Assembly: GCA_040260935.1 (NCBI GenBank)
Contig: JBDQOY010000194.1
Location: 717 to 64,716, forward strand
Direction of reading: 5' to 3'
Length of the DNA: 64,000 nucleotides
Origin: Pirellulales bacterium
Lineage (GTDB): Bacteria; Planctomycetota; Planctomycetia; Pirellulales; UBA1268
Part shown: positions 20,302-48,118 of the stretch, in pieces
How the letters are laid out: each line of letters opens with the position of its first letter
Numbering within the stretch: the first letter of the stretch is position 1
Translations under genes and position numbers: made by a program
The notes under the pieces: generated by a model
What the model was told of the DNA's origin: nothing
Databases searched by the model: none
What the model saw: the letters and a program-made list of their open reading frames with translations, nothing else

Positions 20302-20432
20302 AACCTTAAGGTCGGGCGGCAGGCCTGATTACTAACCAAATAGTCGTATCGTAGGCTTTGCTGGCCTCACGGATAAGAAAAATGCTTGTTGACGCTTTTG
20401 CCCACCGGGGCCCGCGAGGCTGCTGGGGCTCG

Positions 20433-25193: not shown

Positions 25194-25695
25194 CACTCTA
25201 TACTCCATCCGGCCTCGAGGGGTTGGCCGGGCGACACCTGCCCTGAGCCGACACTGCCTGCTCCCACCGTTCGCGTTTGCGGGAGCGACAAGGCAGCCCG
25301 AGACGCTGGCCGCCTGCCATCGATGGAAATCGACCCCGACTGAGACGGGCGTGAGTGATGCCGCGAAAGGTTGCCCCATGGCGGTTGAACCGAACGAAAC
25401 GATCGGTTCTGGCGTAGGGGTAGTGCGTGTCATGCGTCCAGCGGGTGCCCGCTGGTGAAGGGGAGTGGCGGTGTAACCCACAAAAGTGTCCAAGACATTC
25501 GGTTGGATGAGCTAGCAGGGGGCTCGCGGCCTGAGAGGCTGTTGACGCCCGGAAAACCCCGGCTACTGTTATGCAAAACGTTTGCACCTGCAAATAACTT
25601 GCGTGACTTTCGCCCGGGAGTCGGGCATACTAATCCGGGCGTTTCAGCCGTTCTTTCTGTTTTTCTTCGTTGCTCTTCGGATTGGATTGTCTGCC

Positions 25696-26643
25696 ATGAA
25701 CAAGTTTCCCGTCCAGAACCTTCGCCAGGGCCAGTCTGCCCTGCGTCCGGCCTTCACCCTCATCGAACTGTTGGTCGTCATCGCGGTCATCGGCGTCTTG
25801 GTCGGCCTGCTTTTGCCAGCCGTGCAACAGGCGCGGGAAGCCGCTCGAAGGCTGGCCTGCTCCAACAACATGAAGCAGATCGGCCTAGGCCTGCACAACT
25901 ACGCCCATGCCAATCGAGAGTATCTGCCCAAGGGCTGGATCAGCGATGCGGGCCATGAGGACGAAGGGTTGGGCTGGGGCTGGAGTGCCCAGATTCTGCC
26001 GTTCTTGGAGCAGAACGTGATCCATGACCAAATGAATTTCAGGACGAGCATTGCCTCACACGGCAGCGGTGTGAAAACGGCAGCGATTGAGACCTTCCTC
26101 TGTCCTTCCGATGTCCGGGACGGCGCCCAGACCTTTGCCATCGGTGAGGAGTCGGGCTGCGACGAGGACAGCCCCGACACCAGCGCGGCCGGTGATGTCT
26201 ATGGGCTGTCGAACTACGTCGGCGTTTTTGGTGCTGACCATATGGACCATGGTCATGGTGGCGGTGGTGGTCACACTGGCCTCGATCCGGACGATGGTGA
26301 TGGCGTTTTCTTTGCCAACAGCCGTGTCCCTTTCCGGCACATTACGGATGGCCTGAGCAAGACCATTGCTGTCGGTGAGCGGGATTCCCGGATTGGTGGG
26401 AGTACGTGGATTGGTATGATCGAAGGCAAATGCGAGGCCATGTCCCGGGTGGTAGGTGTCGGCGAACATATGTTCAATGAAGCGGATCCCCATTTCGAGG
26501 ATTTTTACAGCCAGCATCCCAATGGCATGAATGTTGTCTTTGCCGATGGGCATGTCGCCTTCCTGCCGAGTTCGATGCAGGAAGCAACCTTCCAGGCTCT
26601 CTGTACCCGCAAAGGCGGGGAGCCGGTCAGTTCTGGCTACTGA
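25696..26643 (+). CDS. DUF1559 domain-containing protein with a prepilin-type N-terminal cleavage/methylation motif
   Basis: RPAFTLIELLVVIAVIGVLVGLLLPAVQQAREAARRLACSNNMKQIGLGLHNY is the stereotyped planctomycete type II pseudopilin/DUF1559 N-terminus. The start is ATG 25696. Confidence 0.9.
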   Translation: MNKFPVQNLRQGQSALRPAFTLIELLVVIAVIGVLVGLLLPAVQQAREAARRLACSNNMKQIGLGLHNYAHANREYLPKGWISDAGHEDEGLGWGWSAQILPFLEQNVIHDQMNFRTSIASHGSGVKTAAIETFLCPSDVRDGAQTFAIGEESGCDEDSPDTSAAGDVYGLSNYVGVFGADHMDHGHGGGGGHTGLDPDDGDGVFFANSRVPFRHITDGLSKTIAVGERDSRIGGSTWIGMIEGKCEAMSRVVGVGEHMFNEADPHFEDFYSQHPNGMNVVFADGHVAFLPSSMQEATFQALCTRKGGEPVSSGY

Positions 26644-26757: not shown

Positions 26758-27978
26758 TTGAATATTGACTTGGAGTACGGCACAGCCCACCCGCTGTCAC
26801 TCGATGTTCCGGCCGGCATCCCCGTGACGATGCATCACGGCCCCGAGGCCCTTGCTGAGCCAGCTTCCAGCCTTGAGATTGCCCTCACTCGGCCCGTGGC
26901 AGGACCGCCGCTGGCCGCCCATGTGGTGCCCGGAGATCGGGTGGTCATCGCCCTGGCTGGCGATTTGCCAGGGGGGCTGCCAACGCACGAACTGGTCCAG
27001 TGCGCGGTCACCGAGCAGTTGGTTGCCGGTGGTGTCGCACCAAGCGAGGTGAGGCTGCTCACAGCGCCGCCGCTGGCCTTGCTGGGGGAGCGGCCACCGG
27101 CAGGCCGGTCGGTTGACGCGGCAACCGTGTTCAACGCTGCGATGGCTGACGAAACCGCCTACCTGCTTGCTGATGACGAGGGGACGCCCCTGCACCTGGC
27201 CCGCCCCCTGGTTGACGCCGATGTGGTCATCGCGGTGGGAGGTTTTGGCTATGATGCCGCGCTCGGCGGCCGCTCGCCCGACGGAGAACTCTGGCCCGGC
27301 TTCGGCCGGCATGAACGGCAGCAGGCGTTCACACTCGGACTCCTCCGGAAACAGCGTTCGACGCTGGAAACCTGGCGAGAACTCACCGGACAGGTCACCT
27401 TCCAACTTGGCATCATGGCCTCCCTGAGGCTGGTCCGAGGCCGCGGCAACTCACTGGCGGGCATCAGTTTTGGTCTTCCGGAGGCCACCACTGCGGCGGC
27501 CCGCCAGTTGGCCCGCCCGTGGCGGCCCGCTGCCCCGGCAAGCGATCTGACCATTGGTGGCATCGCGACGGCGAACTGCGATATGGCGGCCGTCACCCGG
27601 GCTGTTGCTGCAGCCGCGCGGACGACCCGCCCCGGAGGCACAATCTGCATCGCATGTACCCTCAGCGAGTCCCCGGGTATTGTCTTCACGCGGTGGCGGC
27701 AGGCCGCGGAACTCGTGCCTCTGATTCGCGAGGCCGCGCATTCGGGTGACGCCAGCCTGATCACCGAGGGCCTCCAGACCAAACTCTTTGCCCGAGCACT
27801 TGGCGATCGCCGCCTGGTGCTGCTGTCTGGGCTCGACCAAGACCTTGTCGAGGATCTCGACATCGGCCATGCGAGTAGTCCAGATGCCATTGAACGGCTG
27901 ATGCACCAGGCGGACTCAGTCACGTTCCTCCATGAGGCTGACCATCTCTGTCCGAGGCGGGTAGAGGGCCGGGAATAA
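26758..27978 (+). CDS. LarA-like (lactate racemase N-terminal domain, DUF2088) protein, divergent
   Basis: The N-terminus IDLEYGTAHPLSLDVPAG..ALTRPVAGPPLAAHVVPGDRVVIAL follows the LarA_N pattern. The call is made by pattern memory only. Confidence 0.45.
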   Translation: MNIDLEYGTAHPLSLDVPAGIPVTMHHGPEALAEPASSLEIALTRPVAGPPLAAHVVPGDRVVIALAGDLPGGLPTHELVQCAVTEQLVAGGVAPSEVRLLTAPPLALLGERPPAGRSVDAATVFNAAMADETAYLLADDEGTPLHLARPLVDADVVIAVGGFGYDAALGGRSPDGELWPGFGRHERQQAFTLGLLRKQRSTLETWRELTGQVTFQLGIMASLRLVRGRGNSLAGISFGLPEATTAAARQLARPWRPAAPASDLTIGGIATANCDMAAVTRAVAAAARTTRPGGTICIACTLSESPGIVFTRWRQAAELVPLIREAAHSGDASLITEGLQTKLFARALGDRRLVLLSGLDQDLVEDLDIGHASSPDAIERLMHQADSVTFLHEADHLCPRRVEGRE

Positions 27979-29134
27979 GGGGCTGCCCAGTACGGGAGTC
28001 AAGGCGGAAACCAGTTCCGGAACCTGGGCAGTCGATCACCTCGCCGACGATCGCAGTCAGTGGCAGCCCGCCCCAGTGGCGGCTGTCCCGACTGGCCGCC
28101 GGGCAATCACCCAGCACAACCACCTGCCCCGGTGGCACTGACCAGTGGCTCTGGCCGGCGGGCGGCAGCCAGTGGACATCCCTCCAGACGACCAGCCTTC
28201 GTACGGTGAGGGCCGCTGCTGCGGACGGCCCCTGGTTCTGTTGGGAGCCATCCTCAGTCAGGACCGCAGCCGCCAGGGTCAACGGAAAAACCGACGGGGC
28301 GTCACTCACTGGGCTGGACGCCTGCCAGGCTGCCGGGGCCCAAGGCGGCAGGGCCGATCGGGCGGTCCCATCGAGCCATGCAGTAAGCAGGTGGTCTGTC
28401 TCCAGGTCCTGTGCGAGCGGCCACGCTGCGGCAACGAACTGCCCGTCGAGTCGTCCGGCGACAACGGCAACCAGACCGCTGCCTCGCACAACCATCCGGG
28501 CGGTCTGGGAACCGCAGCGGAGCGTAATCGCCAGCTCATCATTTTGGAGTTCACCTACCTCGATAACTGCCGCCAGTCCAGCATCCCGTACCGGCGTAAG
28601 CCGACGCCGTTCGTCAACCAGCCAGGGTGAGTCGTCATAGATCACCGGTGTGTCGTGCGGCTGTGGCTGCCGCGTCACCTGTTGTGGATCAACGGACAGT
28701 ACATCAGAGCCGGTCGCGTTCGCCGCCTGCCAGTGCCACGTGTCATCCGCCATGCTCCAGCCAGATGCCGTCCTGCTGCGGAGGGCCGTTCCATCGCCAA
28801 TCACGGTTGCCAGTTCGGCCAGCACCTGCGGCGACTTCACCAAGAGCGTGCCATCGGCGGTCAGGTCGCCTGCCAGGCAGGCAAGATGTTCACCGGGGAA
28901 CCCCAGCACTCGCTTGACGATCTGTGGGCCCGCATCAAGTTGGCAGATGACCCGAGCATACCGGCCTGGCGTTCCCACACGAGGACTCCAGTTGACCACG
29001 TCACCATCCCGCAGTGCGGGGGCCATCGAGTGGCCCACCACCCGGGCGAACCGGCAGGTGCTGTCATGTTCCAGGCAGCCGGATAGTACCACGGCGGCAG
29101 CCAGCGAGAGGGTGATTCGCCCGGACGCTATCAC
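27920..29134 (-). CDS. S26-family signal-peptidase-I-like protein, predicted lipoprotein, with a ~250-aa insertion
   Basis: The lipobox VVLSGC lies at residues 16-20. GHSMAPAL carries the Ser nucleophile box, IVKRVLGFPGE the Lys box, and GDCPAASRDSRHWG the box E. About 250 residues lie between the Lys box and box E. Confidence 0.75.
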   Translation of the reverse strand: MIASGRITLSLAAAVVLSGCLEHDSTCRFARVVGHSMAPALRDGDVVNWSPRVGTPGRYARVICQLDAGPQIVKRVLGFPGEHLACLAGDLTADGTLLVKSPQVLAELATVIGDGTALRSRTASGWSMADDTWHWQAANATGSDVLSVDPQQVTRQPQPHDTPVIYDDSPWLVDERRRLTPVRDAGLAAVIEVGELQNDELAITLRCGSQTARMVVRGSGLVAVVAGRLDGQFVAAAWPLAQDLETDHLLTAWLDGTARSALPPWAPAAWQASSPVSDAPSVFPLTLAAAVLTEDGSQQNQGPSAAAALTVRRLVVWRDVHWLPPAGQSHWSVPPGQVVVLGDCPAASRDSRHWGGLPLTAIVGEVIDCPGSGTGFRLDSRTGQPLIPGPLPASDRDGQPHGGT

Positions 29135-29213: not shown

Positions 29214-30356
29214 TCAGTCCAACACGCCCTTGACCGGTCCCGGCTTTCGCCGCGGAGGAGGATTCGCCGGTGGAGGTGGTTTCACGCCGATCTTGTAGCC
29301 ACTAAACAGGACATGGTGATAACTCCCAGGATCACTCGGCTGCCAGCCAGCGTAAAAACCTGCTGAATCAGTCACCTTGCGGATCGCCATGTAGGCTTCG
29401 AATGAGTTTGGTTCAACGAGGTAGTTGAGATACCACTTGCCCTGATTGTTTCTTAGGACGGTCTGGAAAATCCCGCGGACAGCGTCTTGTGGCTCCTCGC
29501 CGCACTCCTCGGTGGGCTCAAGCTGCACGTTAATCCGGCTCCCATCTTTCAGTAGGATGATATCAAAATATTTGTTTTTGGCCGGATCGCTGTTGAACTC
29601 AGTAATCATCTGTTCCGCTTTTTTCGCGTCAGCAATGTAATTGCCTTCGCCCACTTGAATCCCGTTCTTTTCAATGAGGAATTTCAGGCGATCCTTAATC
29701 GCATTCTCAAGGCCCTTTCCTGGGTCGACAAATGGGATGACCTTGCCGTCTCGTACGAGCACCTTCCGCTCTTGAAGAATTTGATTGCCGTTGTTGTCAC
29801 GGGGAACATCCTTGGGCGTTGGCGGCCGAACTTCCTTGGGTGGTGGCGGCTTGGGGATCGGCGTATCTTCGAGTTTCGCGAGGATATCTTCCTTGGCGAC
29901 AATATATTTCTTTTCTTTTTCTTCCAGTTCCGCCAGTTGCCGCAGCAGTTGCTGCCGGAGCTCTTCAGCGGCCAGTTTCTTCTCCTCGGCCTCTTTTTCC
30001 TTGGCCGTCACGATCATCATGTCCTGCTTGGCCTTTTCCTCGGCGGCAGATAGCTCTTCTCTCAGCGATGCCAATAATTTCTCGGGGTCGATCTTGTCGC
30101 GATTCTCTTCCTGCTGAATGGCCTGCTGCAGTTTTTCCAGTTCTGCCTTCGCGTCCGCAGCCTGTTGATCGATCTTCTGCTGCTCAGTGGGATCGATCTT
30201 CTCGATCATCTCCTCCATCCGGCGAGCCGCCTCTTGGCTGGAGATCTGTACTGCGACCAGCACGATGACCAGAATGCCAACCACATTCGTCAAGGCATCA
30301 AGGAGGGAGTCCATGTTGCCGCCAGTTGCGGATGTCTTGCTTCGACGTCGCGCCAT
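29214..30356 (-). CDS. ExbD/TolR-like membrane anchor with a long coiled-coil and proline-rich spacer (TonB/TolA-like layout)
   Basis: MARRRSK..MDSLLDALTNVVGILVIVLVAV is a basic N-terminus followed by a single TM helix with an Asp at its cytoplasmic edge, as in ExbD/TolR/MotB. About 150 aa of Glu/Lys/Gln-rich heptad-like sequence follow, then PIPKPPPPKEVRPPTPKDVP. The C-terminal globular domain contains YLNYLVEPNSFEAYMAIRKV. The protein ends in GVLD. Confidence 0.6.
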   Translation of the reverse strand: MARRRSKTSATGGNMDSLLDALTNVVGILVIVLVAVQISSQEAARRMEEMIEKIDPTEQQKIDQQAADAKAELEKLQQAIQQEENRDKIDPEKLLASLREELSAAEEKAKQDMMIVTAKEKEAEEKKLAAEELRQQLLRQLAELEEKEKKYIVAKEDILAKLEDTPIPKPPPPKEVRPPTPKDVPRDNNGNQILQERKVLVRDGKVIPFVDPGKGLENAIKDRLKFLIEKNGIQVGEGNYIADAKKAEQMITEFNSDPAKNKYFDIILLKDGSRINVQLEPTEECGEEPQDAVRGIFQTVLRNNQGKWYLNYLVEPNSFEAYMAIRKVTDSAGFYAGWQPSDPGSYHHVLFSGYKIGVKPPPPANPPPRRKPGPVKGVLD

Positions 30357-30403
30357 TGTTTCCTCCTCTCTCTGTTGGATTCGGTCGTGGGTCAGCCCGC
30401 TGC

Positions 30404-31300
30404 CTAATCGAGCACAATCTGTCCCTCGCCGGGCAGCGGGGCCTTCCCGGTCAGCCCATCGAGCAAGGGGGCTCCATTGGGCAGCATGCCGATGACGAGT
30501 TTCTTTTCGTTGGCTTGTTCAAACTGATTGACCGCATTTTTGACACCACGGTAGGCATTGATGGCATCGGGCCGAATCAGGAACGTCACGATCGTGTCCC
30601 GTCGGTTGCGGAGCAACCCAGTCTGGCCAGCATGCGTCAGCACGTAGTCCAGCAGTTTTTTAAAGTCGGGGTTGTTGCCGATGTTTGCCAGCGGAATCTG
30701 TCGGGGCTTCTCGTCACCAAACAGGTTCTTGTAATCGAGTTTGTTGGGCAGCAACACGAGGGCAGAATTCGTTACCTCTGCAAAGAAGGGCCGCCGGACA
30801 CCGCCTTTGCCCTTATTCTCGTAAAGAATGGAAATGGACTGATCGGGCTTTTCCTTGCGTTTCTCAACCTCGCCCTCGATCCGCCGGATCTCCTTGACGA
30901 TCTGCTGAATCCCAAGCTCACGCTCCTTGACCTTGGCTAGGTCTTCTTTGTCAGGAGGTGGAGGCGGGGGCGGAATCTGCCGCAGCCGCTCACGGGCCTC
31001 CTGCTGCTGCTGAATCGCCTCGGCCAGTTGCTTTTCAGCTCGCTCAATTCGCTTGTCGCCGGCGATGCTCTCCCGCTTGAGTTTCTCAAGTTCCTTCTTC
31101 AGTTCCGCCACCGTCTGCAGATTCTGCTGCGTCTGCTTCTGGACCGCCTCTCGCTTCGCCTGTTCGGCGATTGGCTTAGTGTCGACCTGCTCGAGCACCA
31201 CCGCCGTGATGATCAGGATCAGATTGCCGATCACGCAGGCAAGAATGTCGAGAAAGGGGAAGAGGGAAACTTCCTGTTTCTTCTTCTCTCTACGAGCCAT
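30404..31300 (-). CDS. ExbD/TolR-like membrane anchor with a coiled-coil and polyproline spacer (paralogue of 29214-30356)
   Basis: MARREKKKQEVSLFPFLDILACVIGNLILIITAV matches the ExbD-type P-x-x-D TM motif. A coiled coil follows, then IPPPPPPPD. The C-terminal domain contains IVTFLIRPDAINAYRGVKNAV (ExbD-like v.i.aD...y..v). The protein ends in IVLD. Confidence 0.65.
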   Translation of the reverse strand: MARREKKKQEVSLFPFLDILACVIGNLILIITAVVLEQVDTKPIAEQAKREAVQKQTQQNLQTVAELKKELEKLKRESIAGDKRIERAEKQLAEAIQQQQEARERLRQIPPPPPPPDKEDLAKVKERELGIQQIVKEIRRIEGEVEKRKEKPDQSISILYENKGKGGVRRPFFAEVTNSALVLLPNKLDYKNLFGDEKPRQIPLANIGNNPDFKKLLDYVLTHAGQTGLLRNRRDTIVTFLIRPDAINAYRGVKNAVNQFEQANEKKLVIGMLPNGAPLLDGLTGKAPLPGEGQIVLD

Positions 31301-31372: not shown

Positions 31373-32983
31373 TTACGACCGATAGCGGATGTTGGAGTTT
31401 TCCTCCGTCTTTGCCTTTTTGCTACCGCCCCGGCTGAACCAGCCGCGAGACGTTGTCTCGACAGTGAGGGTCTGTCCGTTGAGACGCTCAATGGTATCGG
31501 CGAGCCCGGCTAGGCTCTGCTGCAAGGAGCCGGTGTACTCCTGCACATTGCTGGCCGCCTCGGTCATCAACTCAGCGGCCCGTCCCCGCGCCTCCTGCGC
31601 TGTCGAGGTCATGGCGGCAATCTCATCCCGGGTTGACTGCACCATCTGGCCGAGTTGCTCCACCTGGCCGGCATTCTTCTCGTAGAGCCGATCATGGACA
31701 TTGCTCCAGCCCTCTTCGACTTTGGCAGCAAGTTTTTCTCCCATGCCGTCGAGGTGGCCGACGAAATTCGACAGCGACTGCTCCGTCTGGGCAATCCGCT
31801 CGGTCTGCTTCTCATCGATCTTCTTCCACGAGTCATACAAGTCGGCTGAGACGCTTTTGCCGAGGGTCTTCAGCTGCGCACCCCAGCCCTCAAGTTCCGC
31901 CCGATGAGCCTTCAGGGCGGCATTGACAACCTCCTGCATGTCTACGCGGCTGGCCGTCGGCATTGGCTGGTCGGGCCCACCCCGGCCATCTTCCAGCCGC
32001 CGCAACAGGTATTCGTTGGTGTATTCGTCAACCTCACCAATCACATCACCTTCCAGTTTCTGGAGGGCACTGACGGGGAAGGTAAGGATCATTGCCATCG
32101 CCAGAGCGACCAGCGTCGTGTCGAACGAGGTGCCCAGGCCGCCGGTGATGTTCTTGAGGCCAGACTTGAGCGACTCCATATCGCTGGAGTTGCTCAGCGT
32201 GTCGGTAAACCCGCCGACGGCGGAACTTACACCGATAACCGTGCCAAGAAACCCAAGGATCGGAATCGCCCAGATGAAGACGTGGAACATCGTGTAACTC
32301 GAGTCGACGCTCCCGGCATCGAGATCAGACTGGCTGGAGAGCATCGTGGCGGTGTCGGCTGCGCTCTTTCGCACCCGAAAGTGTTCCAGGCCGCGGACAC
32401 AGCGGGTCACCAGGAAGCTCCCGACCGCACTCTTGGGGAGTTCGCTGATGTAGGCCAGGAACTTGTCGATGTTCCGAACCGTAATTTTCTCACCAATGTC
32501 ACTGGGCAGCACATCAAATAGCATCGCCCGCTGCTGCCGTCGGATCTTGAAGAGTTTGCTGACCAGCATGCTGGCGGCCCAGCAGAAGAGAAAGACTTCG
32601 GTGTAGGGCACCCACATACCGGTCGCCATCGAAGCGGTCTCACCACCAAAGAACAGTCGCCCAAGGTAGGAACGTTTTTCCGGGGGGCCAGCGAATGGAA
32701 GCAGGAGCAGGTAGAAGACGACGGTCGCTGCCAAGCCCACCAGAATGTAGAAGCCGACACTGACATTCGTGTTTGCCGTGACCGAGAGCACCTTTGAACG
32801 GGCCGCAGCGGAATCGCTCGCGCCCTCTGTTCCGGCAGCCTGTCCTGCGGCAAGCGGTGGTGGGGAAGGCCGCTGCACAGTGATCGACCCGCGACAGTGC
32901 GGGCAACGAGCGGTGCTGCCGACAAGCTCATCACGAACCTTGAGGCTCTTCTGGCAGTGTGGGCAAGGCATGTTGAAATACAT
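31373..32983 (-). CDS. MotA/TolQ/ExbB-family proton channel protein with an N-terminal zinc ribbon and a C-terminal helical tail
   Basis: CPHCQ..x16..CPHCRG lies at the N-terminus. Two TM helices follow, then a soluble loop. The family core follows, with AIPILGFLGTVIGV and LGTSFDTTLVALAMAMILTFPVSAL. About 190 aa of helical, heptad-like sequence then run to the C-terminus. Confidence 0.75.
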   Translation of the reverse strand: MYFNMPCPHCQKSLKVRDELVGSTARCPHCRGSITVQRPSPPPLAAGQAAGTEGASDSAAARSKVLSVTANTNVSVGFYILVGLAATVVFYLLLLPFAGPPEKRSYLGRLFFGGETASMATGMWVPYTEVFLFCWAASMLVSKLFKIRRQQRAMLFDVLPSDIGEKITVRNIDKFLAYISELPKSAVGSFLVTRCVRGLEHFRVRKSAADTATMLSSQSDLDAGSVDSSYTMFHVFIWAIPILGFLGTVIGVSSAVGGFTDTLSNSSDMESLKSGLKNITGGLGTSFDTTLVALAMAMILTFPVSALQKLEGDVIGEVDEYTNEYLLRRLEDGRGGPDQPMPTASRVDMQEVVNAALKAHRAELEGWGAQLKTLGKSVSADLYDSWKKIDEKQTERIAQTEQSLSNFVGHLDGMGEKLAAKVEEGWSNVHDRLYEKNAGQVEQLGQMVQSTRDEIAAMTSTAQEARGRAAELMTEAASNVQEYTGSLQQSLAGLADTIERLNGQTLTVETTSRGWFSRGGSKKAKTEENSNIRYRS

Positions 32984-33174: not shown

Positions 33175-34317
33175 TTACGATTTTCCGACATTCACCCACT
33201 GGTGACTCTGGGCGCTGGCCAGCACCGCATCGCAGACCTGCTGGGTTTCCAGGGCGTCGCGGAAGGTGGGCCGACAGGGCTTGCCCTTGGCGTAAGCCGC
33301 GAGAAAATCGGCTACGTGATGGACAAACGAGTGCTCATAGCCAATCGCGAGCCCCGGCACCCACCAGTTGGCCATATAGGGATGGTCACCGTCGGTGACA
33401 TGCACACTCTTCCAGCCGCGTTCGGGACCTTCGTCGCTGTAGTCAAAAATTTCGAGCCGGTGGAGATCGTGCAGATCCCACTTCAGGCTCATGTTCTCTC
33501 CGTTGATCTCAAAGGTGTAGAGCGCCTTGTGGCCCCGGGCATACCGGGTGCTTTCAAAAAGGCCCAGGGATCCATTCTGAAAATGGCAGAGGAATGAACA
33601 GGCGTCATCAATCTCGACCTTTTCCTTTTTGCCAGTCAGTTGGTGTGTCCGCTCTTTGACAAACGTTTCGGTCATCGCCGTCACATCGCTCACCGATCCA
33701 TTGAGCCAGATCGCAGTGTCGATGCAGTGGGCCAGCAGGTCACCGGTCACGCCGCTGCCAGCCGCCTTGGCGTCGAGCCGCCAGAGAGCCGCCCCGCCCT
33801 GAGGCAGGTCAGCGTTGATGGTCCAGTCTTGGAGGAAGTTCGCCCGGTAGTGGAACACGCGGCCGAGCCGGCCGGAGTCGATCAGGTGCTTGGCGAAGGT
33901 GACGGCCGGGATTCTTCGGTAGTTGTACCAGACGGTATTAGGGACCCCGGCTGCCTCGACTGCCGCGCACATCCGCTCACCTTCGGCCGTGTCCATCGAC
34001 AGCGGCTTCTCGCAGAGAATGGCCTTGCCATGTTTGGCGGCCTCAATGGCGATGTCGGCATGCAGGTTGTTCGGGGTGCAGATATCGATCGCGTCGATGT
34101 CATCAGCGGCCACCAGTTTTCGCCAGTCGGTCTCCACCCGCTGGTACCCCCAGCGGTCAGCAAAGGCCTGTGCTTTCTCGCTGTCCCGCGCACTGACCGC
34201 CTGCAGTATCGGCAGGTACTCCAGATCGAAAAAATCCTTGACCCGGTTGTAGCCATTGGAGTGGGCCCGGCCCATGAAGCCGTAGCCGATCATGCCGATG
34301 CGGAGCGGTTTTGCCAT
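33175..34317 (-). CDS. Gfo/Idh/MocA-family oxidoreductase
   Basis: [16 protein letters not shown] is the Rossmann N-terminus, and EKPLS and other family blocks are present. The product is 380 aa. Confidence 0.85.
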
Positions 34318-34341
34318 CAGGGAGTCCTTTCGTAACTCAGG

Positions 34342-35373
<1,032 letters not shown>

Positions 35374-35767
35374 CGCGTTATTCCTTCCCGCTGTGGGCTG
35401 AGCAGATGGGTACGTGACTGTGAAAGAGTGTGAGAGCGGATCATACCCCAAAGCCGCCAGCGAACGGAGGCCTGCGCCTGCGGTCATCTCTTGCAAGCTC
35501 TTCCACGCAGGGTGCCGTATGGTCACCGAGGAATTACCCCGCTGGGACAATGTTGTATGACCGCACCCCGGGGACCGCAACCAACGTCGCAGGGCATTCA
35601 CGATCCAAGACGCTGCCCAGTCGTTTCTGCGGGGCGTGCCTGACCGGTTTCAAGCCGACACGCGACCGCCACCCGTTATCCTGCTCTTTTCCCGCCTGCG
35701 GCATAATGCGGGCTGAATCGGCGACATTCCTGCTGGCGTATCCCTGCTGAAACGTGCCTCCCCGAAC

Positions 35768-36457: not shown

Positions 36458-39400
36458 CTAGCGACTTGTGACGGGAAGGCTTTGCGACCGGGCGGAGAAT
36501 TCGGGCGCGTACCGGCTGCGAATCGTGGCAAACCCGCTGGAGGCCTTGCCGCGGTGTGCGACGCGGAGCGAATACTCAAAGACGTGGGTGCCAGGTGGCA
36601 GTCGCTCAAAGAACAACTGCGTGCTGGCATCCCGGGTCACCTGGTACCAGCCCACACCATCGCCCCACTTCCAGCCCGAAAGCACATCGACAGGCTCCGT
36701 CAGACTCGGGCGATGATCGGCCAGTTCGAGGAACTCGTAGGCCCGGTCGCTGGTCACCACCAGCCGCACCACCAATTCGTCACCCACCTCCACTGCTGTG
36801 GTAGTCGGCACCGGCTCAAGCACAGGCCCTGCCTTGGTGAAGGTTTTCTTGAACAGGGCCTTAGTGACCGCCAATTCTGTTCGGCCTGCTGCCTCGACGT
36901 TCTCTATTTGATCAAGGTACTGCCAGTGGACACCACCAAAGGCCAGTCCACCACCCGCCGGCTTCGCAAAGGTCACCTCGGCCATGGCGGGCCCGATCTC
37001 CCGCCGCACGAAGCGGGTCTCGAAAAAGCCGGTGCCCGCCTCGGGCGCGCTTGCTCCAGCCTCCCCTGGCTTGATCGATTCACCGCCCACGGTGATCGCC
37101 ATCAGGCTTTTATCACCAAGCAGATCATGGCCCCGACCCAGCAGGACGCCGACGGCATCGGCGGTGGCCTGACTGCCCGACCAGCGGCTGGTGCGCTTCT
37201 GTTGGACGAGCCATGCCTTCATCGCCTCAACCGATGCGGCATCACCGGCCACCTCATCAAAGGCCTCAATTAAAACTGACTGGGTTTCAATCGGTGCCGC
37301 CAGCCAACTCCACCAGCCGGGATGGCGCTCTCGCCACCACATGCCCTGCCAATTCTCTTCACCACGGTCAGCAGTCTGTTCGCCCCGCGGACCACCCACC
37401 GCCCGCTGCCGCAGGCTTTCGATGATCGACAAGGCGGACTCCCGCTCGCTGTTGCGAGCCAGCGCGATTGCCAGCTGCCCTTGGCTGCGGTTGTGCGAGA
37501 GCTCGGTCCAGCTCTGCCGGCCGACCTTGACACACCAGGCATGGGCGGCGGCGGCCGGTCCTTGGAGCGGCACGTCCTTGAGGAAGAAACTTCGGGCATA
37601 GAGGGCAAAGACCCCCAGCGAGGTGAGCACAGGCTCTTCTGCGAAGGCAGCGTTGCCGGCTTTGCGGGCCCGCTCAGCCCGCCGTTCAAAGAATTCCTTT
37701 TCTTCAATCAGCCGCTGATCGATCCAGGGCACTGCTGCCAAGGCAGGGGCCACATCAATTGTCACGCCATTAGCCCGCAGCCGCCCGAAGCCGGCCGCAA
37801 TCGAAAGGGTGATTGAATCGCACGATTGGCCGCCGGGGAACCAGGGCCAGCCTCCGTCGGGGTTGCGTAGTCTGTTCAGGCGAGCGATCGCTGCGGCAAT
37901 CTCGTTTTCCACCCGGGTCTTGTCGAAAAGCAGGGCGATGCGGGCTCGGGCCTCGCGTTCGTCGGTCGCCTCACGGAACCAGGGGGTTTCCGCGAGCAGG
38001 GTTTGGACGAGGTCGCTGTTCTTCTCCAGCGGGCTTTCCAAGGCGTCGGTGCCCCGCCACTGGTCGAACACCTGCGCAATCCGCGGGTCAGCGGCGACTA
38101 GGTGTCGGGCGTAGGCGTTGGCATAGAGCCGTTGGAACAGTGTGTCGATGCTTTCGCATCCCTCTTCCATCAGGTAGGGCAGGGCCATCACCGCATACCA
38201 GGCCGGGTTGGAGACTGCCTGCACGACGAGCGACTGGTTTTCGATCGTTGCCTCTGCCTGCTGTGCCATGGCAGCGAGTTTCTCAAGACGGACGTGGCGG
38301 GTTTCTCCCCCGCGAACAGTTACGGGAATCGTCTCGGTCACCAGCACCTTGCGGGGCAGGACGGGCAGCAGGGCTTCTTCGCCGTCGCTCAGCGGTCGGG
38401 CCGATCCGGTCGTGGAGCCGGTCGCCAGATAGCGGAGCACATCGGTGCCGTCGGCAACCCGAATCGTGAAGAAGACAGCCTCGCTTGCCCCCGCCGCAAG
38501 GTCGAAGGTTCGCTCGGCCGGGCCGTCAAGGAGTGCCTCACGAGAATCATTGCTGCGGGCATCAAACAGAGCCAGCCGCACCCGGCCGGTCAGCCGCCCG
38601 GTGGAACCATTACTCACCTTGACGGGGAACTGCACCACGTCGCCCTCACGAAGGAACCGCGGTGGCTGGGGCTCGACCATCAGATCCTTGGCCGTCACGC
38701 AGGTGTCGAACAGCGTGCCGCTGCGGAGCTGCTCATCATGGGCAATCGCCTTAAACTGCCAGGTGGTCAGCGTGTCGGGCAGCGTGAACTCCAGCGTCAC
38801 GGTGCCGTTGGCGTCCGAGACCAGTGCCGGTAGGAAGAAGGCCGTCTCGGCCAGGTTGCGACGCGGGGGTGGGGCGGTGGCCGCAGCGGGCTCGGCACCG
38901 GCGGCTTGCTCTTCCGCAGCCGCCTCGGGCTCGCCCGTCGCGTTTGCCGACTCTTTCATCATGGCCCCAAGAGGTATGGCATCTGCCGCCATTGCGGCGT
39001 CCTCCATCATCATTCCCTCGGCCATCGCGGGTGCCGCCATCGCTGCCATCGGCCCCCGGCGAAACATCCGTCCGCCCATCAAGCTACCCAAGCCTCCCTG
39101 CAGCGGGGAACCAAACGGAGCCCGCAGGTGGTGGTAGGAGATCGAGACGCCCTCAAACCGCCGCGCCCAGTTACCGAAGATTGGCTGCAATTGCTGGGCA
39201 ACGTTCGTGAATTGAAGCTGCCGCGAACTTGACTCCCCGGCGAAGAGCCCGAGAAAGCCCCCCGGCCAGGCATGCGGAGCGAGTGCATCGAGGGACTGGT
39301 CGTAGAGGGTCGCCACCATTTCAGCGACGGCGGGAGCCGACGGGCCCGCCAACGGATCGGCGACGGTGCGGATGGTTGCCCGCCAGATCTCCTGGGCGGC

Positions 39401-42400
39401 GGGCTCGAGTTTTCGCGTGAAGCGTTCCCAGACAACGGAGAGCTGCTTGTTGGTCCACGGCACCGCGATCGTCCGTGAGTCGTGGTGCAGGCGACCGTCC
39501 CGCACCATCCAGGCTCGAACCGTCACACCGCCACGATGGGCGTCGGTCAGTTTCAAGCGAATGGGCGTCTGGGTCCGGTTGGGTTCGGTCCAGAACCGCT
39601 CGAGCATGCGGCCTGCCTTGACCAGTTCAACCAGCATCCGCCCCTGTTCGTAGCCCGTACCGACGAGGGCCACGAGTTCACTGTCCACGTCGACCGTTGT
39701 TTTTTCTGTCCGCAGGACAAAGGCCCGCTTGATGCCATAGGTGCTTGCAGCAGGGTCGACGACCTCTATCAACCGGGTGGCCTGTACCGCAGGGCGATCC
39801 TTGCTGTTGGCCACCTCAAAGATTGCCCGGTAGATGCCTGCCGACAGGGTCGCCGTCGCGACCGCCTTGCCGGTGGCGGCGTCGGTTGTGTTGTCGGCCG
39901 CAAACACTTCCTCCCCCTCTGCCCAGGTCTCGGGGTTGGCGGGATCGGGGTCCCTCACTGCAGGATTATTGACGGGGCCCCCTGTTCGAAACGCGGGGTA
40001 CGGGACCGGGCGGCTGGTGAGATCACCGCGGCTCACGTCTGATGGCTGGACGAGCCGAACGACCCGAAGCCGCCCCGTTACTCCCCGCGGCGCTCCGTCG
40101 AGGGAGGTTGTTGTGATGGTCAGCGGCACCGCCGCCGGTTCGCCGCTGTGAGATGCCTGCCAGGCAGCCACCTCAACCGTGGCCTCAACGTCGGTATATC
40201 CTGCCGCAACGCGGCGATCAGCGGAACGAGTCTCTCCAGCAGTGTCGGTGACATCGGCGGTCACCGCATACGTAAAAACCGGCAGCGAGGCTTGTGGCAC
40301 GCTACGGTCAGGCACCGCCGGGAAATGAATGGTGAAACTGCCGTCGCCATCCGTGGTGGCCGTGCCCCGGGCAATCCGCCGGCTGCCGCTGTCGAAGGGG
40401 AGCCAGGGGTAGACCCAGCGGCACCAGATCGGAAACCGCATCTGCCGTTCAACCCGCCAGACCACCTTGGCCCCAGCAACTGCCAGCCCGGTGTAGCTGG
40501 TGGCCGTCCCTGTAAGACGAACGTCTCGGTTGAGTTGCACTGATTCAGTGGGAGCAGCCAGTTCAACCTTGAACTTCGGCCGCTTGTATTCCTCAACACG
40601 AATCGCGGTCGACCCTGATCCCCCGCTGCCTCGAGCCTGAACCGACCAGCCACCAGGCAGAGCCCCGGTTGGGATCGGGAAGCTGCCTTGGAACGAGCCG
40701 AACCGATTGGTCGTGGCAGCAAGCTTTGCGACCTCACGACGATTGGCATCTCGGAGGACGACCTCGACGCGGCCTGCTTCAATCGCCCGGGCACTGCGGC
40801 CATCGGCTGCCCGCTCAAGGAGCACCCCCTTGAACTGGACGAGTTGCCCGGGCCGGTAGATGCCGCGATCACTCATCAAGACAATCGACCGTTGGGCCTG
40901 CGGCTGGTGGCGGTGATGCCAGTAGTTCAGCGGCTCACTGAGGATCGTCTGGCTGTGACCAGCAATGCTGGCAGTGGCGACCAGGACCGCCTGGCGGCCC
41001 GTGGTGGCGGCCAGTTCATAGCGGCCCTCGGCATCGGTCTGGGTGCTGCCGGCCTTCTCGAACCGGTGCGGCCGATCTCCGTGCTGTTGCTGCTGCCAGA
41101 CGGTGACCGTTGCTCCCGCAACTGACGCACCGCTCCCGCTTTCGACGACATAGCCCGTGTGCCGGGCCTGCGGCTGCGGATGATTGGTCGTGCTGACCAG
41201 AGTCAGCCGGCTGACCCAGACAAGCGTGACTGCAACCACGTTGTCTTGGTCGCCAAAATTTTCTCGATTGCTCGCAAGCAGCCAGTAAGCCCCTGGTTCA
41301 AGTTCGGTCGCATCAAAGGCGGTGGCGACTGGAATCTGATGGATCGCTTGTCGGTAATCAACCGTCGCGGGCAAGTCAGCGACAAAGGTTTTGACTGCCG
41401 GCAGGGCCCGCAGGGCCTGAAGATCCTCGGCATCCCGCCAGTTGCCCGAAGGTTTGCCTGCGGCGAGCCGGCCCTCCCAGTCGGCTCGTGCCAGCCGCAG
41501 ATGGACCTTGGTGAGGTTGCGATAGGTCACGGTGACAGTTGGCCAGGGCGCCGCCCAGGTCCGCTCTGCCTCAAGTGAGATTTCTTTGGCTTCAATGTTT
41601 TTGATGAGGTTTCGGCACTGTTTCCCGCCAACGCTGTCGGGGTGGGCTTCGCTCCCTGCCAGGGCGATGGCTCTTGCCTCAGCCGGATCGTCTTCCCGCA
41701 GGCTGGATGCCAGATGAAACCGGGCCTGAGCCGACAACGCATGGTCTGCTGCCCGCTCGATGAAATCTCGCAGCGCTGCCTGGAGGGCTTCCTGCGGCTG
41801 GGCGGTGGCATCGGCAACAGCGACGTCGCCGGCCCAGAGCAGCCGGTCGAGATCAGTTGCCAAGAAGGCAGTGCGGTCGGCGTCATCGGCATGGAAGGCC
41901 AACAGGGCTTGATAAAGACCGGCCACAGCCAGCAGGGGCGACTCGGTATCGCTGACAGCCCCACCGCCATCTGGCCCGGCTGTCTTCCATCGGCGAAAGG
42001 CCTCAACGTCCTGGAGGGCAGGGCTTGATGCCTCAAGTTCAAACGCATCTTCAGGCTCAGCAAATCCGCGTTCCCCCATTGTGTGAAAAGCAATCGCATC
42101 ATGAACCACCACATCCCAGATGGTGGGGCGATAGGCGGCTCCCATGCTGCCCGGTTCAACCAGCATCGCCCAGTCATCGACAGGCAGTTGCTTCAGGCCA
42201 GCCTCATCAGCAAGCGCTACGGCAAACTGATGCTGAATCTCATCCACAATCTGCCGGAGATCCCACGAAGCCATCTCCGCAAGGTCGCGGTCGGCGTCTC
42301 CAGCAGCCTGGCTTGTCCGCTGGGAAAACCGCCAGCGGTTGGCCTGGAAAAAGCCCCATGTCCAGTTGGCACGAATGGCCTCGAGCACGCTGCGGGTTGG

Positions 42401-42757: not shown

Positions 42758-43006
42758 GGTGAAGGCCCCAGTGTGGAAGAAAACGCTGAATTGGCGAACG
42801 AACGCTGAAAACGCCGTCACAACACATCTCTGCGGTCGGTTAACGCTGCCGATTGGTTGCCGTTACAGGAAAAGTAGGTAAGAATTAAGAAGTCAGAAAA
42901 CTTCCCGCCGATCGATCCTCGCTCTTCGTAGGGTCCGCGTTTCTGGGCCGGCTGCCTGGAAACGGCGACGTGGGTGTTCCCAACCAGACTCTTAGGAGTT
43001 TCGTCC

Positions 43007-47924: not shown

Positions 47925-48118
47925 CTTTTTTGTTGGTTCCCCGTTCTCAAGTCGCTCTGGCAGGAAAACGAGATGCGTCCGACACGGACCATGATTCAGA
48001 AGCGGCTCCATTCAAGTCTGTTCTGGGTCGCACGGGGATGCGTGCATCCGGTCCACAACACGAGTAAAACACAGCGGGTAGAGACAGGGGGGACCCTGCT
48101 TCGCCCCATCGCTAGAAA

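What the first reader, a model, noticed from the sequence alone, without database searches (positions are those of the whole stretch)
29214..31300. Two tandem ExbD/TolR-like paralogues with coiled-coil and polyproline spacers and a shared C-terminal VLD
Both proteins start MARR + basic residues and then have one TM helix with an Asp at its N-terminal edge (FPFLDILACVIG and SLLDALTNVVG). Each then has 100-150 aa of Glu/Lys/Gln-rich heptads and a proline run (IPPPPPPPD and PIPKPPPPKEVRPPTPKDVP). The globular domains align to each other and match the ExbD periplasmic-domain pattern (IVTFLIRPDAINAYRGVKNAV versus YLNYLVEPNSFEAYMAIRKV). Both terminate in ..G-x-(I/G)-VLD-stop (GQIVLD and VKGVLD). Canonical ExbD/TolR proteins are about 140 aa with no spacer. 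The spacer is instead reminiscent of TonB or TolA, so each protein looks like an ExbD-TonB/TolA hybrid. Two different B-type subunits next to one A-type subunit suggests a heterodimeric plug.
Basis: seen in the sequence. Interest (0 to 1): 0.6.

Follow-up and report, generated by a model that had tools for sequence, protein, structure and literature searches.

The report
Planctomycete three-gene proton motor module
Two neighbouring genes encode related membrane-anchored proteins with long stalks that, with the MotA/ExbB-type channel gene upstream, form a three-gene module kept throughout Planctomycetota and most likely an uncharacterised proton-driven motor reaching across the cell envelope.

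Summary
ORFs 30404-31300 (B1, 298 aa) and 29214-30356 (B2, 380 aa) on the minus strand have every quoted motif. They follow a 536-aa MotA/ExbB-domain gene (A, 31373-32983).

The order A, B1, B2 is kept in every one of 79 Planctomycetota loci that holds enough sequence.

- **Paralogy:** B1 and B2 are distant paralogues. Profile comparison aligns the N-terminal helix and a beta-alpha core of the C-terminal domains.
- **ExbD link:** B1 is a very divergent ExbD/TolR relative with about 110 helical residues inserted. With that insert removed, 99 columns align co-linearly (P 0.004; 0 of 150 shuffles reach the score). It stays below Pfam's cut-off and Foldseek finds no PDB match. B2 links to ExbD only through B1.
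- **Membrane Asp:** B2 keeps two Asp and a terminal hydrophobic-Asp in all full-length copies. B1's Asp is Ser in 28 of 63 species, and Ala in a paralogous module.
- **Terminal VLD:** the shared VLD is not homologous by alignment.
- **Heads:** secreted proteins that fuse both C-terminal domains exist.

Best reading: an A5:B1:B2 motor with a heterodimeric stalk, a new variant of a known kind. Its cellular function is unknown.

The parts
31373..32983 (-). A subunit, 536 aa. MotA/ExbB-type channel protein with an N-terminal zinc ribbon and a long helical C-terminal tail.
   Evidence: Pfam PF01618 scores 30.8 bits (cut-off 22.9) at aa 199-307. It is 70% identical in a relative whose B2 is only 41% identical. 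It was found in 136 Planctomycetota species genomes.
32885..32971 (-). CxxC...CxxC zinc ribbon of A (aa 5-33), presumably cytoplasmic.
   Evidence: Weak Zn_ribbon and MJ0042 matches. The CxxC-x(8-25)-CxxC pattern is present in 73 of 76 A orthologues.
32063..32389 (-). MotA_ExbB domain of A (aa 199-307). It holds the motifs IPILGFLGTVIGV and FDTTLVAL.
   Evidence: Pfam alignment range. These columns are invariant across three A proteins that are 44-70% identical. The resemblance to the ExbB/TolQ signature is from my own knowledge.
31376..31966 (-). Helical C-terminal tail of A (aa 340-536).
   Evidence: Weak matches to ZorA tails in PADLOC (E 3.6e-7) and to apolipoprotein A-IV helical repeats (E 1.3e-3). 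The ending ...YRS is conserved.
30404..31300 (-). B1, 298 aa. Divergent ExbD/TolR-like subunit with an inserted helical spacer.
   Evidence: With the spacer removed, 99 columns align co-linearly with ExbD/TolR (P 0.004; 0 of 150 shuffles reach the score). IMG names one cluster member ExbD.
31190..31267 (-). B1 membrane helix (aa 12-37), SLFPFLDILACVIG, with Asp18.
   Evidence: It aligns in register with ExbD eINvtPliDVM. LFPF is invariant in 116 of 116 family members. Position 18 is Ser in 100 and Asp in 13 of the 116 sequences in the family alignment, and Asp in 35 against Ser in 28 species loci.
30851..31183 (-). B1 helical spacer (aa 40-150), interrupted by IPPPPPPPD (aa 109-117, nt 30950-30976).
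   Evidence: 53% of residues are E, K, Q or R. The 3.5-residue hydrophobic periodicity has p<0.001. The polyproline run is kept in close relatives only.
30407..30850 (-). B1 C-terminal globular domain (aa 151-298).
   Evidence: AF2 model with pLDDT 89.5 and pTM 0.83. Family motifs are PxFVE, FLxRPD..Y and GKxPxPGxG. hhalign against the ExbD periplasmic domain gives P 0.014 with 0 of 150 shuffles reaching the score. Foldseek against the PDB finds no significant match.
29214..30356 (-). B2, 380 aa. The Asp-bearing B-type subunit, a paralogue of B1.
   Evidence: It always follows B1 in the loci.
30237..30314 (-). B2 membrane helix (aa 15-40), MDSLLDALTNVVG, with Asp16 and Asp20.
   Evidence: Both Asp are present in all 66 full-length orthologues (60 by pattern, 6 by eye). 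They are invariant in the alignment. Asp20 aligns with B1 Asp18.
29862..30236 (-). B2 charged helical spacer (aa 41-165).
   Evidence: 49% of residues are E, K, Q or R, with no significant heptad periodicity. Pro56 and Pro91 are invariant. The spacer length matches that of B1 (medians 158 and 155 residues).
29802..29861 (-). B2 proline-rich linker PIPKPPPPKEVRPPTPKDVP (aa 166-185).
   Evidence: V176, R177, P179 and P181 are invariant in the 18-sequence B2 alignment. The wider family has (L/P)PxP(R/K) at this place. The same linker joins the two domains in the secreted fusion proteins.
29286..29801 (-). B2 C-terminal globular domain (aa 186-357).
   Evidence: AF2 model with pLDDT 91.0 and pTM 0.80. 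Its core YLVEPDSFExY aligns with B1 FLVRPDGxxTY. Foldseek against the PDB finds no significant match; TolR 5by4 appears only at rank 24 with E 0.32.
29217..29285 (-). B2 proline-rich tail ending in VLD at the carboxy terminus (aa 358-380).
   Evidence: The terminal pattern (V/I/L/D/T)(V/I/L)D is present in 65 of 66 orthologues; the exception runs off its contig. The tail has pLDDT 77-87 in the model.

Best explanation
The three genes A (31373-32983), B1 (30404-31300) and B2 (29214-30356) most likely encode one inner-membrane, ion-driven motor of the MotA/ExbB 5:2 class, specific to Planctomycetota.

**Proposed assembly (inferred)**
- Five A subunits form the ring.
- The N-terminal helices of one B1 and one B2 sit inside the ring as a heterodimeric axle.
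- B2 carries the proton-binding Asp residues. B1 is a partner whose equivalent residue may be Asp, Ser or Ala.

**Proposed reach (inferred)**
- In each B protein, about 110-125 helical residues and a proline-rich stretch are inserted between the pore helix and an ExbD-derived head.
- The two length-matched spacers would run side by side as a periplasmic stalk of roughly 15-20 nm. That length is my estimate from 0.15 nm per helical residue.
- The stalk would carry a B1-head/B2-head heterodimer and the B2 proline-rich tail, with its invariant terminal hydrophobic-Asp, towards the cell wall or outer membrane.
- Each B chain would therefore combine the roles that ExbD/TolR and TonB/TolA divide between two proteins.

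**Shown here**
- Gene order and conservation.
- Domain anatomy.
- A's membership of PF01618.
- B1-B2 paralogy.
- A weak B1-ExbD relationship.
- The invariant Asp pair in B2.
- Fusions of the two heads.

**Not shown**
- Stoichiometry, rotation, the stalk geometry, the partner at the far end and the cellular process served.
For: **A is a MotA/ExbB-type protein.** PF01618 scores 30.8 bits against a cut-off of 22.9.

**The module is conserved.**
- The A-B1-B2 order holds in every locus with enough sequence among 79 loci from Planctomycetota species genomes.
- It also holds in metagenome loci L001-L003 and L005.
- No other neighbour is conserved.

**B1 and B2 are paralogues.**
- N-termini: hhalign E 1.1e-6, probability 91%.
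- C-terminal domains: E 1.9e-5.
- Shuffle control: score 31.7 against 12.2 +/- 2.3, and 0 of 100 shuffles reach it.

**B1 is related to ExbD/TolR.**
- With the spacer removed, 99 columns align co-linearly from the pore-helix signature to helix 2. P is 0.004 and 0 of 150 shuffles reach the score.
- The C-terminal domain alone gives P 0.014, with 0 of 150 shuffles reaching the score.
- The order of secondary-structure elements in the AF2 models has a strand-strand-helix-strand-helix-strand core.

**B2 looks like the proton-binding subunit.** Asp16 and Asp20 are invariant in 66 of 66 orthologues, and the terminal hydrophobic-Asp in 65 of 66.

**The two B proteins appear to work as a pair.**
- Spacer lengths match, with medians of 155 and 158 residues.
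- Stand-alone secreted proteins fuse the B1 head to the B2 head through the RPPTPKDVPR-type linker.

**Precedents exist.** AglR5-AglQ-AglS is predicted to have a heterodimeric plug (PMC11761067). Pairs of unlike transpore-helix-vWA proteins sit next to TolQ-like genes (PMC12204202).
Against: - No complex was modelled or measured.
- The ExbD relationship is weak:
  - B1 is below Pfam's cut-off (16.9 against 25.4 bits) and the match covers only aa 5-101, not the head.
  - There are no Pfam hits for the heads or for consensus sequences.
  - There are no PDB sequence hits to ExbD, TolR or MotB.
  - Foldseek of both confident models finds nothing significant in the PDB.
- I chose the boundaries of the excised spacer in the mini-B1 test.
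- B1's pore-position residue is not conserved (Asp 35, Ser 28; Ala in L103). That would also fit a B1 that is not in the pore.
- The B2 spacer shows no heptad periodicity, so a canonical two-stranded coiled coil along the whole stalk is unproven.
- A has no detectable sequence match to solved ExbB, TolQ or MotA chains.
- Nothing in the neighbourhood points to a cellular process.
Confidence: 0.6

Rival explanations
1. This is a Ton/Tol-like three-component arrangement. A B2 homodimer forms the Asp-bearing axle inside A5. B1 binds on the outside of the ring, as TonB or TolA does, and is the force transducer (A5:B2x2:B1).
For: - B2's Asp pair is invariant, whereas B1's equivalent residue varies between Asp, Ser and Ala.
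- B1 has the three-part TonB/TolA plan of membrane helix, helical or proline-rich spacer and small C-terminal domain.
- The family consensus has Ser18, Cys22 and Leu29. From my own knowledge, this spacing loosely recalls the Ser-His-Leu-Ser motif of TonB and TolA.
Against: - B1's helix aligns with the ExbD pore-helix signature (xxxP-hydrophobic-hydrophobic-D) in the correct register.
- B1's helix also aligns with B2's helix.
- B1 has no His at the motif position.
- There is no TonB_C or TolA_C match.
- B1's head resembles the ExbD periplasmic domain and B2's head.
- B2 has an equally long spacer of matched length.
- The 1:1 fusions of the two heads argue for a 1:1 pair.
Confidence: 0.2
2. This is a Zorya-like sensor or defence motor. 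The B stalk senses an envelope disturbance, and rotation is passed into the cytoplasm through the long helical tail and zinc ribbon of A.
For: - There are weak PADLOC matches of A to ZorA models, including tail regions (best E 3.6e-7) and a weak NCBIfam ZorA match (E 0.013).
- A has a helical C-terminal tail of about 200 aa.
- A has a conserved cytoplasmic zinc ribbon.
Against: - No ZorC, ZorD or ZorE-like or other effector genes lie nearby, and no neighbour is conserved beyond the triad.
- B1 and B2 lack an OmpA-type peptidoglycan-binding domain.
- The only ZorB match is B1 at E 0.082.
- The module appears vertically conserved. A's identity falls from 97% to 32% roughly in line with the taxon labels, and the neighbours are housekeeping-type genes.
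- The ZorA matches are far below NCBIfam cut-offs (13.8 against 190 bits).
Confidence: 0.07
3. This is an ordinary ExbB-ExbD1-ExbD2 energiser for TonB-dependent uptake that has simply diverged in sequence.
For: - A has the MotA_ExbB domain.
- IMG names a B1 cluster member as ExbD.
- From my own knowledge, tandem exbD genes are common in other phyla.
Against: - Both B proteins are two to three times the ExbD length because of a conserved insert of about 110-125 residues.
- Neither reaches the Pfam or NCBIfam cut-offs.
- No TonB-like gene or TonB-dependent receptor gene is conserved next to the module.
- A has extra domains at both ends.
Confidence: 0.08

Closest known systems
ExbB-ExbD and TolQ-TolR (with TonB or TolA) proton-driven motors
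   Same: - The A gene has the MotA_ExbB domain.
- Single-pass B proteins follow it, each with a basic N-terminus and an Asp in the helix.
- B1 keeps the ExbD signature P-x-x-D in register and aligns co-linearly with ExbD through the periplasmic domain.
- The overall logic is the same: an inner-membrane motor coupled to something further out.
   Different: - The B proteins are 298 and 380 aa rather than about 140.
- A helical or proline-rich spacer is inserted between the pore helix and the head, so the reach that TonB or TolA provides is built into the B chains.
- There are two unlike B genes.
- B1's Asp is often Ser.
- There is no TonB_C or TolA_C domain.
- A has a zinc ribbon and a long tail.
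- Similarity is below family cut-offs.
AglR-AglQ-AglS gliding motor of Myxococcus xanthus
   Same: One A-type gene with two different TolR-like B genes. It is predicted to form an A5 ring with a heterodimeric plug (PMC11761067).
   Different: - In that model, reach across the periplasm is supplied by GltG (compared there to TolA), not by long spacers in AglQ and AglS.
- No Glt-like genes accompany the planctomycete module.
Transpore-helix-vWA proteins next to TolQ-like genes (Origin and Evolution of Bacterial Periplasmic Force Transducers, PMC12204202)
   Same: - B-type pore helices are fused directly to a distal periplasmic effector domain.
- The genes are found mostly as unlike pairs beside a TolQ-like gene with no separate tolR/exbD.
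- They are proposed to transduce force by rotating inside the pentamer.
   Different: - The distal domain there is vWA. Here it is an ExbD-derived head on a long helical stalk.
- That family is reported mainly from Proteobacteria and Verrucomicrobia. This one was found only in Planctomycetota.
- Each vWA partner is reported to keep its Asp.
GldL-GldM / PorL-PorM motor of Bacteroidota (from my own knowledge)
   Same: A 5:2-class motor whose B-type subunit itself spans the periplasm as a long dimeric stalk.
   Different: - GldM is a homodimer of multi-domain arms, not a coiled stalk with ExbD-like heads.
- No sequence similarity was detected in any search here.
Zorya ZorA-ZorB
   Same: The A subunit has a long helical C-terminal tail, and there are weak profile matches to ZorA.
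   Different: There is no peptidoglycan-binding ZorB domain, no ZorC/D effectors and no defence-island context.

Membership tests
MotA/ExbB/TolQ 5:2 ion-driven motors (the system as a whole) | The A subunit carries the MotA_ExbB (PF01618) channel domain. | tested here: met
   30.8 bits against a cut-off of 22.9, E 2.7e-7, aa 199-307. Precomputed PF01618 hits are also on record for the A genes of L001, L005, L103 and L104.
MotA/ExbB/TolQ 5:2 ion-driven motors (the system as a whole) | The B subunit gene is adjacent to and co-oriented with the A gene. | tested here: met
   The A-B1-B2 order on one strand holds in all loci with enough sequence. In the window the gaps are 72 and 47 nt, and no terminator-like site lies between the genes on the coding strand.
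MotA/ExbB/TolQ 5:2 ion-driven motors (the system as a whole) | The B subunit has a single N-terminal membrane helix with a conserved, protonatable Asp. | tested here: met
   B2: Asp16 and Asp20 are present in 66 of 66 orthologues. B1 meets this feature in the window and its clade only: 35 Asp against 28 Ser.
MotA/ExbB/TolQ 5:2 ion-driven motors (the system as a whole) | Five A subunits around two B helices, with rotation driven by ion flow. | not testable with these tools
ExbD/TolR (Pfam PF02472) | The score reaches the curated family threshold. | tested here: not met
   - B1 scores 16.9 bits against 25.4, and only over aa 5-101. B2 has no hit.
- TolR NCBIfam scores 15.2 against 162.
- Spacer-excised and consensus sequences give at best E 0.24.
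- The 43 head sequences give no hit.
ExbD/TolR (Pfam PF02472) | Pore-helix signature x-x-x-P-hydrophobic-hydrophobic-D followed by a hydrophobic helix. | tested here: met
   B1 VSLFPFLDIL aligns with ExbD eINvtPliDVM in register. Taken alone the support is marginal (P 0.04; 4 of 100 shuffles reach the score). B2 lacks the Pro; its Asp20 aligns but without significance (P 0.17).
ExbD/TolR (Pfam PF02472) | Periplasmic domain with the ExbD/TolR fold (strand-strand-helix-strand-helix-strand). | tested here: inconclusive
   **For**
- hhalign of the B1 head against an ExbD/TolR alignment gives 63 co-linear columns at P 0.014, with 0 of 150 shuffles reaching the score.
- With the spacer removed, 99 columns align at P 0.004, with 0 of 150 shuffles reaching the score.
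- The order of elements in the AF2 models fits.

**Against**
- Foldseek against the PDB finds no significant match for either head. TolR 5by4 appears only at rank 24 with E 0.32 for B2.
ExbD/TolR (Pfam PF02472) | Compact protein of about 140 aa with a short linker between helix and domain. | tested here: not met
   The proteins are 298 and 380 aa. The distance from the pore residue to the start of the head is about 150-177 residues across the family.
TonB / TolA force transducers | Ser-His-Leu-Ser motif with the essential His in the membrane helix. | tested here: not met
   Neither helix contains a His. B1 has Cys22 at the comparable spacing in 107 of 116 family members.
TonB / TolA force transducers | TonB_C or TolA_C C-terminal domain. 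| tested here: not met
   No such Pfam match for the full proteins, the heads or the consensus sequences, with E-value limits of 1 to 10.
TonB / TolA force transducers | Long proline-rich or helical periplasm-spanning middle region. | tested here: met
   B1 aa 40-150 and B2 aa 41-185.
Zorya (ZorAB) defence system | ZorA and ZorB family membership plus ZorC/D or ZorE effector genes. | tested here: not met
   - NCBIfam ZorA scores 13.8 against 190 bits.
- PADLOC ZorA matches are weak. The only ZorB match is B1 at E 0.082.
- No conserved accessory genes are present.

The most novel reading that the evidence does not exclude
The module may be an intrinsically asymmetric 5:1:1 motor. Only one of the two axle helices (B2, with two invariant Asp one helical turn apart) would bind protons. 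The other (B1, with Ser or Ala in many lineages) would be a passive partner. The power stroke would then differ from the alternating two-Asp cycle of all solved 5:2 motors. Its built-in stalk would make it the Planctomycetota-specific machine that carries inner-membrane energy to the wall or outer membrane.
Probability: 0.25. Interest if true: 0.75.

Novelty: new variant of a known kind. Interest (0 to 1): 0.58.

Why it matters
**A family of motors with no known job.** From my own knowledge, Planctomycetota have an unusual cell envelope and unusual ways of dividing and taking up large molecules. How they deliver energy to the outer layers is poorly understood. This work defines a module that looks like such an energy-delivery machine:
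- It has three genes in a strictly conserved order.
- It was found in at least 136 species genomes.
- A profile of B1 finds more than a thousand sequence clusters at 50% identity.
- None of its three proteins has a described function, and B1 and B2 are not covered by Pfam.

**New material for how this class of motor works.**
- The reach across the periplasm is built into the axle subunits.
- The two axle subunits are unlike each other, and one often lacks the proton-binding Asp.
- Natural fusions of the two heads exist as separate secreted proteins.

**It is testable.** Cultured relatives such as Planctopirus carry the module.

Tried and rejected
- **Direct BLASTP of B1 against B2:** not significant.
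- **PDB sequence searches** with the B1, B2 and B1-head profiles: only coiled-coil noise.
- **PDB sequence search with the A profile:** only helical-repeat proteins.
- **Pfam scans** of 43 B1 heads one by one, of family consensus sequences and of spacer-excised constructs: no ExbD, TonB or TolA match to the heads.
- **Foldseek** of both AF2 head models against the PDB: nothing significant.
- **B2 head or spacer-excised B2 against ExbD/TolR:** no signal.
- **Correlation of B1 and B2 spacer lengths across loci:** the range is too narrow to be informative (rho 0.22, p 0.12). Only the matched medians are reported. Two earlier pattern definitions missed many loci and were replaced.
- **Cross-hits of my local B1 and B2 HMMs** on each other's proteins: I discounted them because the B2 alignment included fusion proteins that contain the B1 head.
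- **Conserved neighbours:**
  - The S26 peptidase-like gene occurs in only 13 close loci.
  - Gfo/Idh/MocA genes occur at varying positions.
  - I did not accept either as part of the module.
- **Promoter and terminator scan:** uninformative.
- **Literature searches:** no paper on this family in Planctomycetota. The exbB/exbD genes named in the Rhodopirellula transcriptome paper could not be tied to this module.


Full report
**1. What is in the sequence**

The interval 29214-31300 holds two complete minus-strand ORFs. B1 is at 30404-31300 (298 aa) and B2 at 29214-30356 (380 aa).

- They are separated by 47 nt, and B2 has a GAGGAGGA ribosome-binding site.
- A 536-aa ORF, A (31373-32983), ends 72 nt upstream of B1.
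- No terminator-like site lies between the three genes on the coding strand.

Both B proteins have the same plan. [quoted passage not shown]

**2. The upstream gene**

A matches Pfam MotA_ExbB above the curated cut-off (30.8 against 22.9 bits, aa 199-307).

- It has an N-terminal CxxC...CxxC zinc ribbon, kept in 73 of 76 orthologues.
- It has a helical C-terminal tail of about 200 aa. The tail gives only weak matches, to ZorA tails (PADLOC E 3.6e-7) and to apolipoprotein A-IV repeats (E 1.3e-3).
- It has no detectable sequence match to solved ExbB, TolQ or MotA chains.

**3. Conservation and gene context**

B1 has 371 homologues and B2 has 207 at E<=1e-3. Those that carry a source name come from Planctomycetota metagenome-assembled genomes. 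A B1 profile finds 1148 clusters at 50% identity in 1.8 billion representatives, 149 of them at E<=1e-10.

A scan of one genome per species with the A protein confirmed 136 relatives, and the 79 loci kept were examined. They are labelled Pirellulales, Thermoguttaceae, Rhodopirellula, Rubripirellula, Planctopirus hydrillae and others.

- In every locus with enough sequence, the order is A, then B1, then B2 on one strand.
- The same holds in metagenome loci L001-L003 and L005.
- Clustering of all flanking ORFs found no further conserved neighbour.
- The S26 signal-peptidase-like gene downstream in the window (27920-29134) recurs in only 13 close loci. Gfo/Idh/MocA genes occur at varying positions.

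The functional unit is therefore the triad.

**4. Are B1 and B2 paralogues?**

BLASTP says no (E 0.84). Profile comparison says yes.

- The first 41 residues align at E 1.1e-6 with probability 91%. A column-shuffle control on a rougher alignment was passed by 1 of 100 shuffles.
- The head-only alignments match at E 1.9e-5 over 50 columns.
- These alignments hold 43 B1-type sequences and 22-23 B2-type sequences.
- In the shuffle control the score was 31.7 against 12.2 +/- 2.3, and 0 of 100 shuffles reached it.

**5. Are they ExbD/TolR-like?**

Standard tests fail.

- B1 scores 16.9 bits on Pfam ExbD (cut-off 25.4), and only over aa 5-101. B2 has no hit.
- The heads, consensus sequences and spacer-excised constructs give nothing.
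- PDB sequence searches give nothing.

I then built an ExbD/TolR reference alignment of 13 sequences from annotated plasmid genes and the E. coli protein.

- The B1 head profile aligns to the ExbD periplasmic domain over 63 co-linear columns. P is 0.014. The score is 18.1 against 10.2 +/- 2.0 for shuffles, and 0 of 150 shuffles reach it.
- With the helical spacer cut out of the B1 family alignment, 99 columns align. They run from the pore-helix signature (VSLFPFL[D/S]IL against eINvtPliDVM), through the V-x-V-x-P linker, to helix 2.
- For that alignment P is 0.004. The score is 23.8 against 12.1 +/- 2.6, the best shuffle scores 23.7, and 0 of 150 reach it.
- B2 shows no direct signal.

The order of secondary-structure elements in both models contains a strand-strand-helix-strand-helix-strand core. 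B2 has an inserted helix-helix-hairpin. From my own knowledge, that core is the ExbD/TolR order.

My reading is that B1 is a very divergent ExbD/TolR derivative with a large insertion, and that B2 is a further diverged paralogue. The support is real but modest, and formal family membership is not met.

**6. The membrane Asp**

In B2 the motif D-S-(L/M)-L-D-(A/T)-x-T-N-V-V-G, with both Asp, is present in all 66 full-length orthologues.

B1's Asp18 aligns with B2's Asp20 and with ExbD's Asp25. It varies across the family:
- Asp in 35 and Ser in 28 species loci.
- Ser in 100 and Asp in 13 of the 116 sequences in the family alignment.
- Ala in a paralogous triad.

B2 looks like the obligatory proton-binding subunit.

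**7. The C-termini**

B2 ends in a proline-rich tail and (V/I/L/D/T)(V/I/L)D at the carboxy terminus in 65 of 66 orthologues. This is a genuine, unexplained invariant.

B1 family members usually end in GKLPxxGxGx(I/L)DLSxF plus a few residues. The window's clade stops early at G(E)G(K/Q)I(L/V)LD, and its last Asp aligns with the Ser of DLS. The shared VLD is thus not homologous by alignment. It may be convergent.

**8. Spacers**

- The B1 spacer has significant 3.5-residue hydrophobic periodicity (p<0.001). The B2 spacer does not (p=0.47). The B2 spacer has invariant Pro56 and Pro91.
- The distance from the pore residue to the start of the head is 150-177 residues in B1 (median 155) and 147-164 in B2 (median 158) across the family.
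- The B1 polyproline run is clade-specific.
- The B2 linker has V176, R177, P179 and P181 invariant in its 18-sequence alignment. The wider family has (L/P)PxP(R/K) at this place.

**9. Two side findings that bear on mechanism**

(a) Secreted head-head fusions.
- Several divergent proteins consist of a signal peptide, the B1 head, an RPPTPKDVPR-type linker and the B2 head ending in VLD. They are P0222, P0257, P0319 and the truncated P0244. P0284 has the same two heads, but its called N-terminus shows no signal peptide.
- They are stand-alone genes that do not lie next to an A gene.
- Such fusions argue that the two heads work together one-to-one in the periplasm.

(b) A paralogous triad on other planctomycete contigs (L103, L104).
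- A' has no zinc ribbon.
- B1' is 514-632 aa, with Ala at the pore position and a second head-like repeat.
- B2' begins DSFLDIVANLVG.

The arrangement of one variable and one Asp-bearing B subunit is therefore a recurring design.

**10. Mechanism proposed**

I propose an A5 ring with a B1/B2 heterodimeric axle driven by the proton gradient. The two length-matched spacers would form a stalk of about 15-20 nm, by my estimate. The stalk would present a head heterodimer and the B2 tail to a partner in the wall or outer membrane. Each B chain would thus combine ExbD/TolR-like and TonB/TolA-like roles.

Precedents are the predicted AglR5-AglQ-AglS heterodimeric plug (PMC11761067) and the unlike pairs of transpore-helix-vWA proteins beside TolQ-like genes (PMC12204202).

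Stoichiometry, rotation, stalk geometry, the partner and the cellular process are all inferred and untested.

The rivals are:
- a B2 homodimer axle with B1 bound outside like TonB or TolA;
- a Zorya-like sensor;
- a merely divergent ExbB-ExbD1-ExbD2.

**11. Novelty**

No paper on this family in Planctomycetota was found. Public annotations are 'hypothetical', 'DUF4200', 'ExbD', 'MotB', 'barstar' or 'CheA'. It belongs to a known class of machine but has a distinct, conserved architecture. I therefore rate it a new variant of a known kind, with moderate to good interest.

Noticed in passing
P0222, P0257, P0284, P0319, P0244; loci L007 and L099-L102: Proteins made of the B1 head, an RPPTPKDVPR-type linker and the B2 head ending in VLD. 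P0222, P0257, P0319 and P0244 start with a signal peptide. P0284 does not, as called. They are stand-alone genes on short contigs and do not lie next to a MotA/ExbB gene. One sits after a gene whose product looks to me like a formylglycine-generating-enzyme-type protein (not scanned).
   Followed up: partly
L103:2959-6661 and L104:445-4429: A paralogous triad in planctomycete contigs. It has a MotA_ExbB protein without a zinc ribbon. It has a 514-632-aa B1-like protein with Ala at the pore position (SLFPFLAVLIC) and a second head-like repeat. It has a 340-aa B2-like protein starting DSFLDIVANLVG.
   Followed up: partly
window 27920-29134 (-): A 404-aa signal-peptidase-I-like protein (Peptidase_S26). 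Its two catalytic-domain pieces (about aa 25-97 and 306-367) are split by an insert of about 200 aa. It lies directly downstream of B2 and is conserved there only in 13 closely related loci.
   Followed up: partly
window 31376-31966 (-), the tail of A: The C-terminal tail of the MotA/ExbB-like protein resembles apolipoprotein A-IV amphipathic helical repeats (E 1.3e-3). It ends in a conserved W-F..GG...YRS. Its role is unknown.
   Followed up: partly
B2 aa 16 and 20 (window about 30297-30311): B2 has two invariant Asp residues one helical turn apart in the same membrane helix (D-S-L-L-D). ExbD aligns only with the second (Asp25). From memory, MotB also has a single Asp.
   Followed up: partly
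L025, L030, L032, L033, L035, L036, L042 and others: Genomes labelled 'Chitinophagaceae' or 'Candidatus Kuenenia' carry A proteins 62-81% identical to this Pirellulales-type protein. These look like mislabelled or contaminated bins.
   Followed up: no
window 48001-52000: G+C content falls to 0.551, against 0.58-0.65 elsewhere in the window. This may be foreign or otherwise atypical DNA.
   Followed up: no
window 36458-42820 (-): A very large ORF of 2120 aa lies near the module. It was not examined.
   Followed up: no
window 25582-26643 (+): A protein with a prepilin-type N-terminal methylation motif plus DUF1559 (SBP_bac_10), a family typical of Planctomycetota.
   Followed up: yes
window 33175-35601 (-): A Gfo/Idh/MocA oxidoreductase gene and a xylose-isomerase-like TIM-barrel gene lie directly upstream of A. 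The same pair recurs upstream in close relatives (the TIM-barrel gene in 16 loci) and in L001. Gfo/Idh/MocA genes also appear near more distant modules, but at varying positions.
   Followed up: partly
window 17701-20328 (-): An ORF with a weak match to my local B1 HMM (E 8.8e-4), probably through coiled-coil composition.
   Followed up: no
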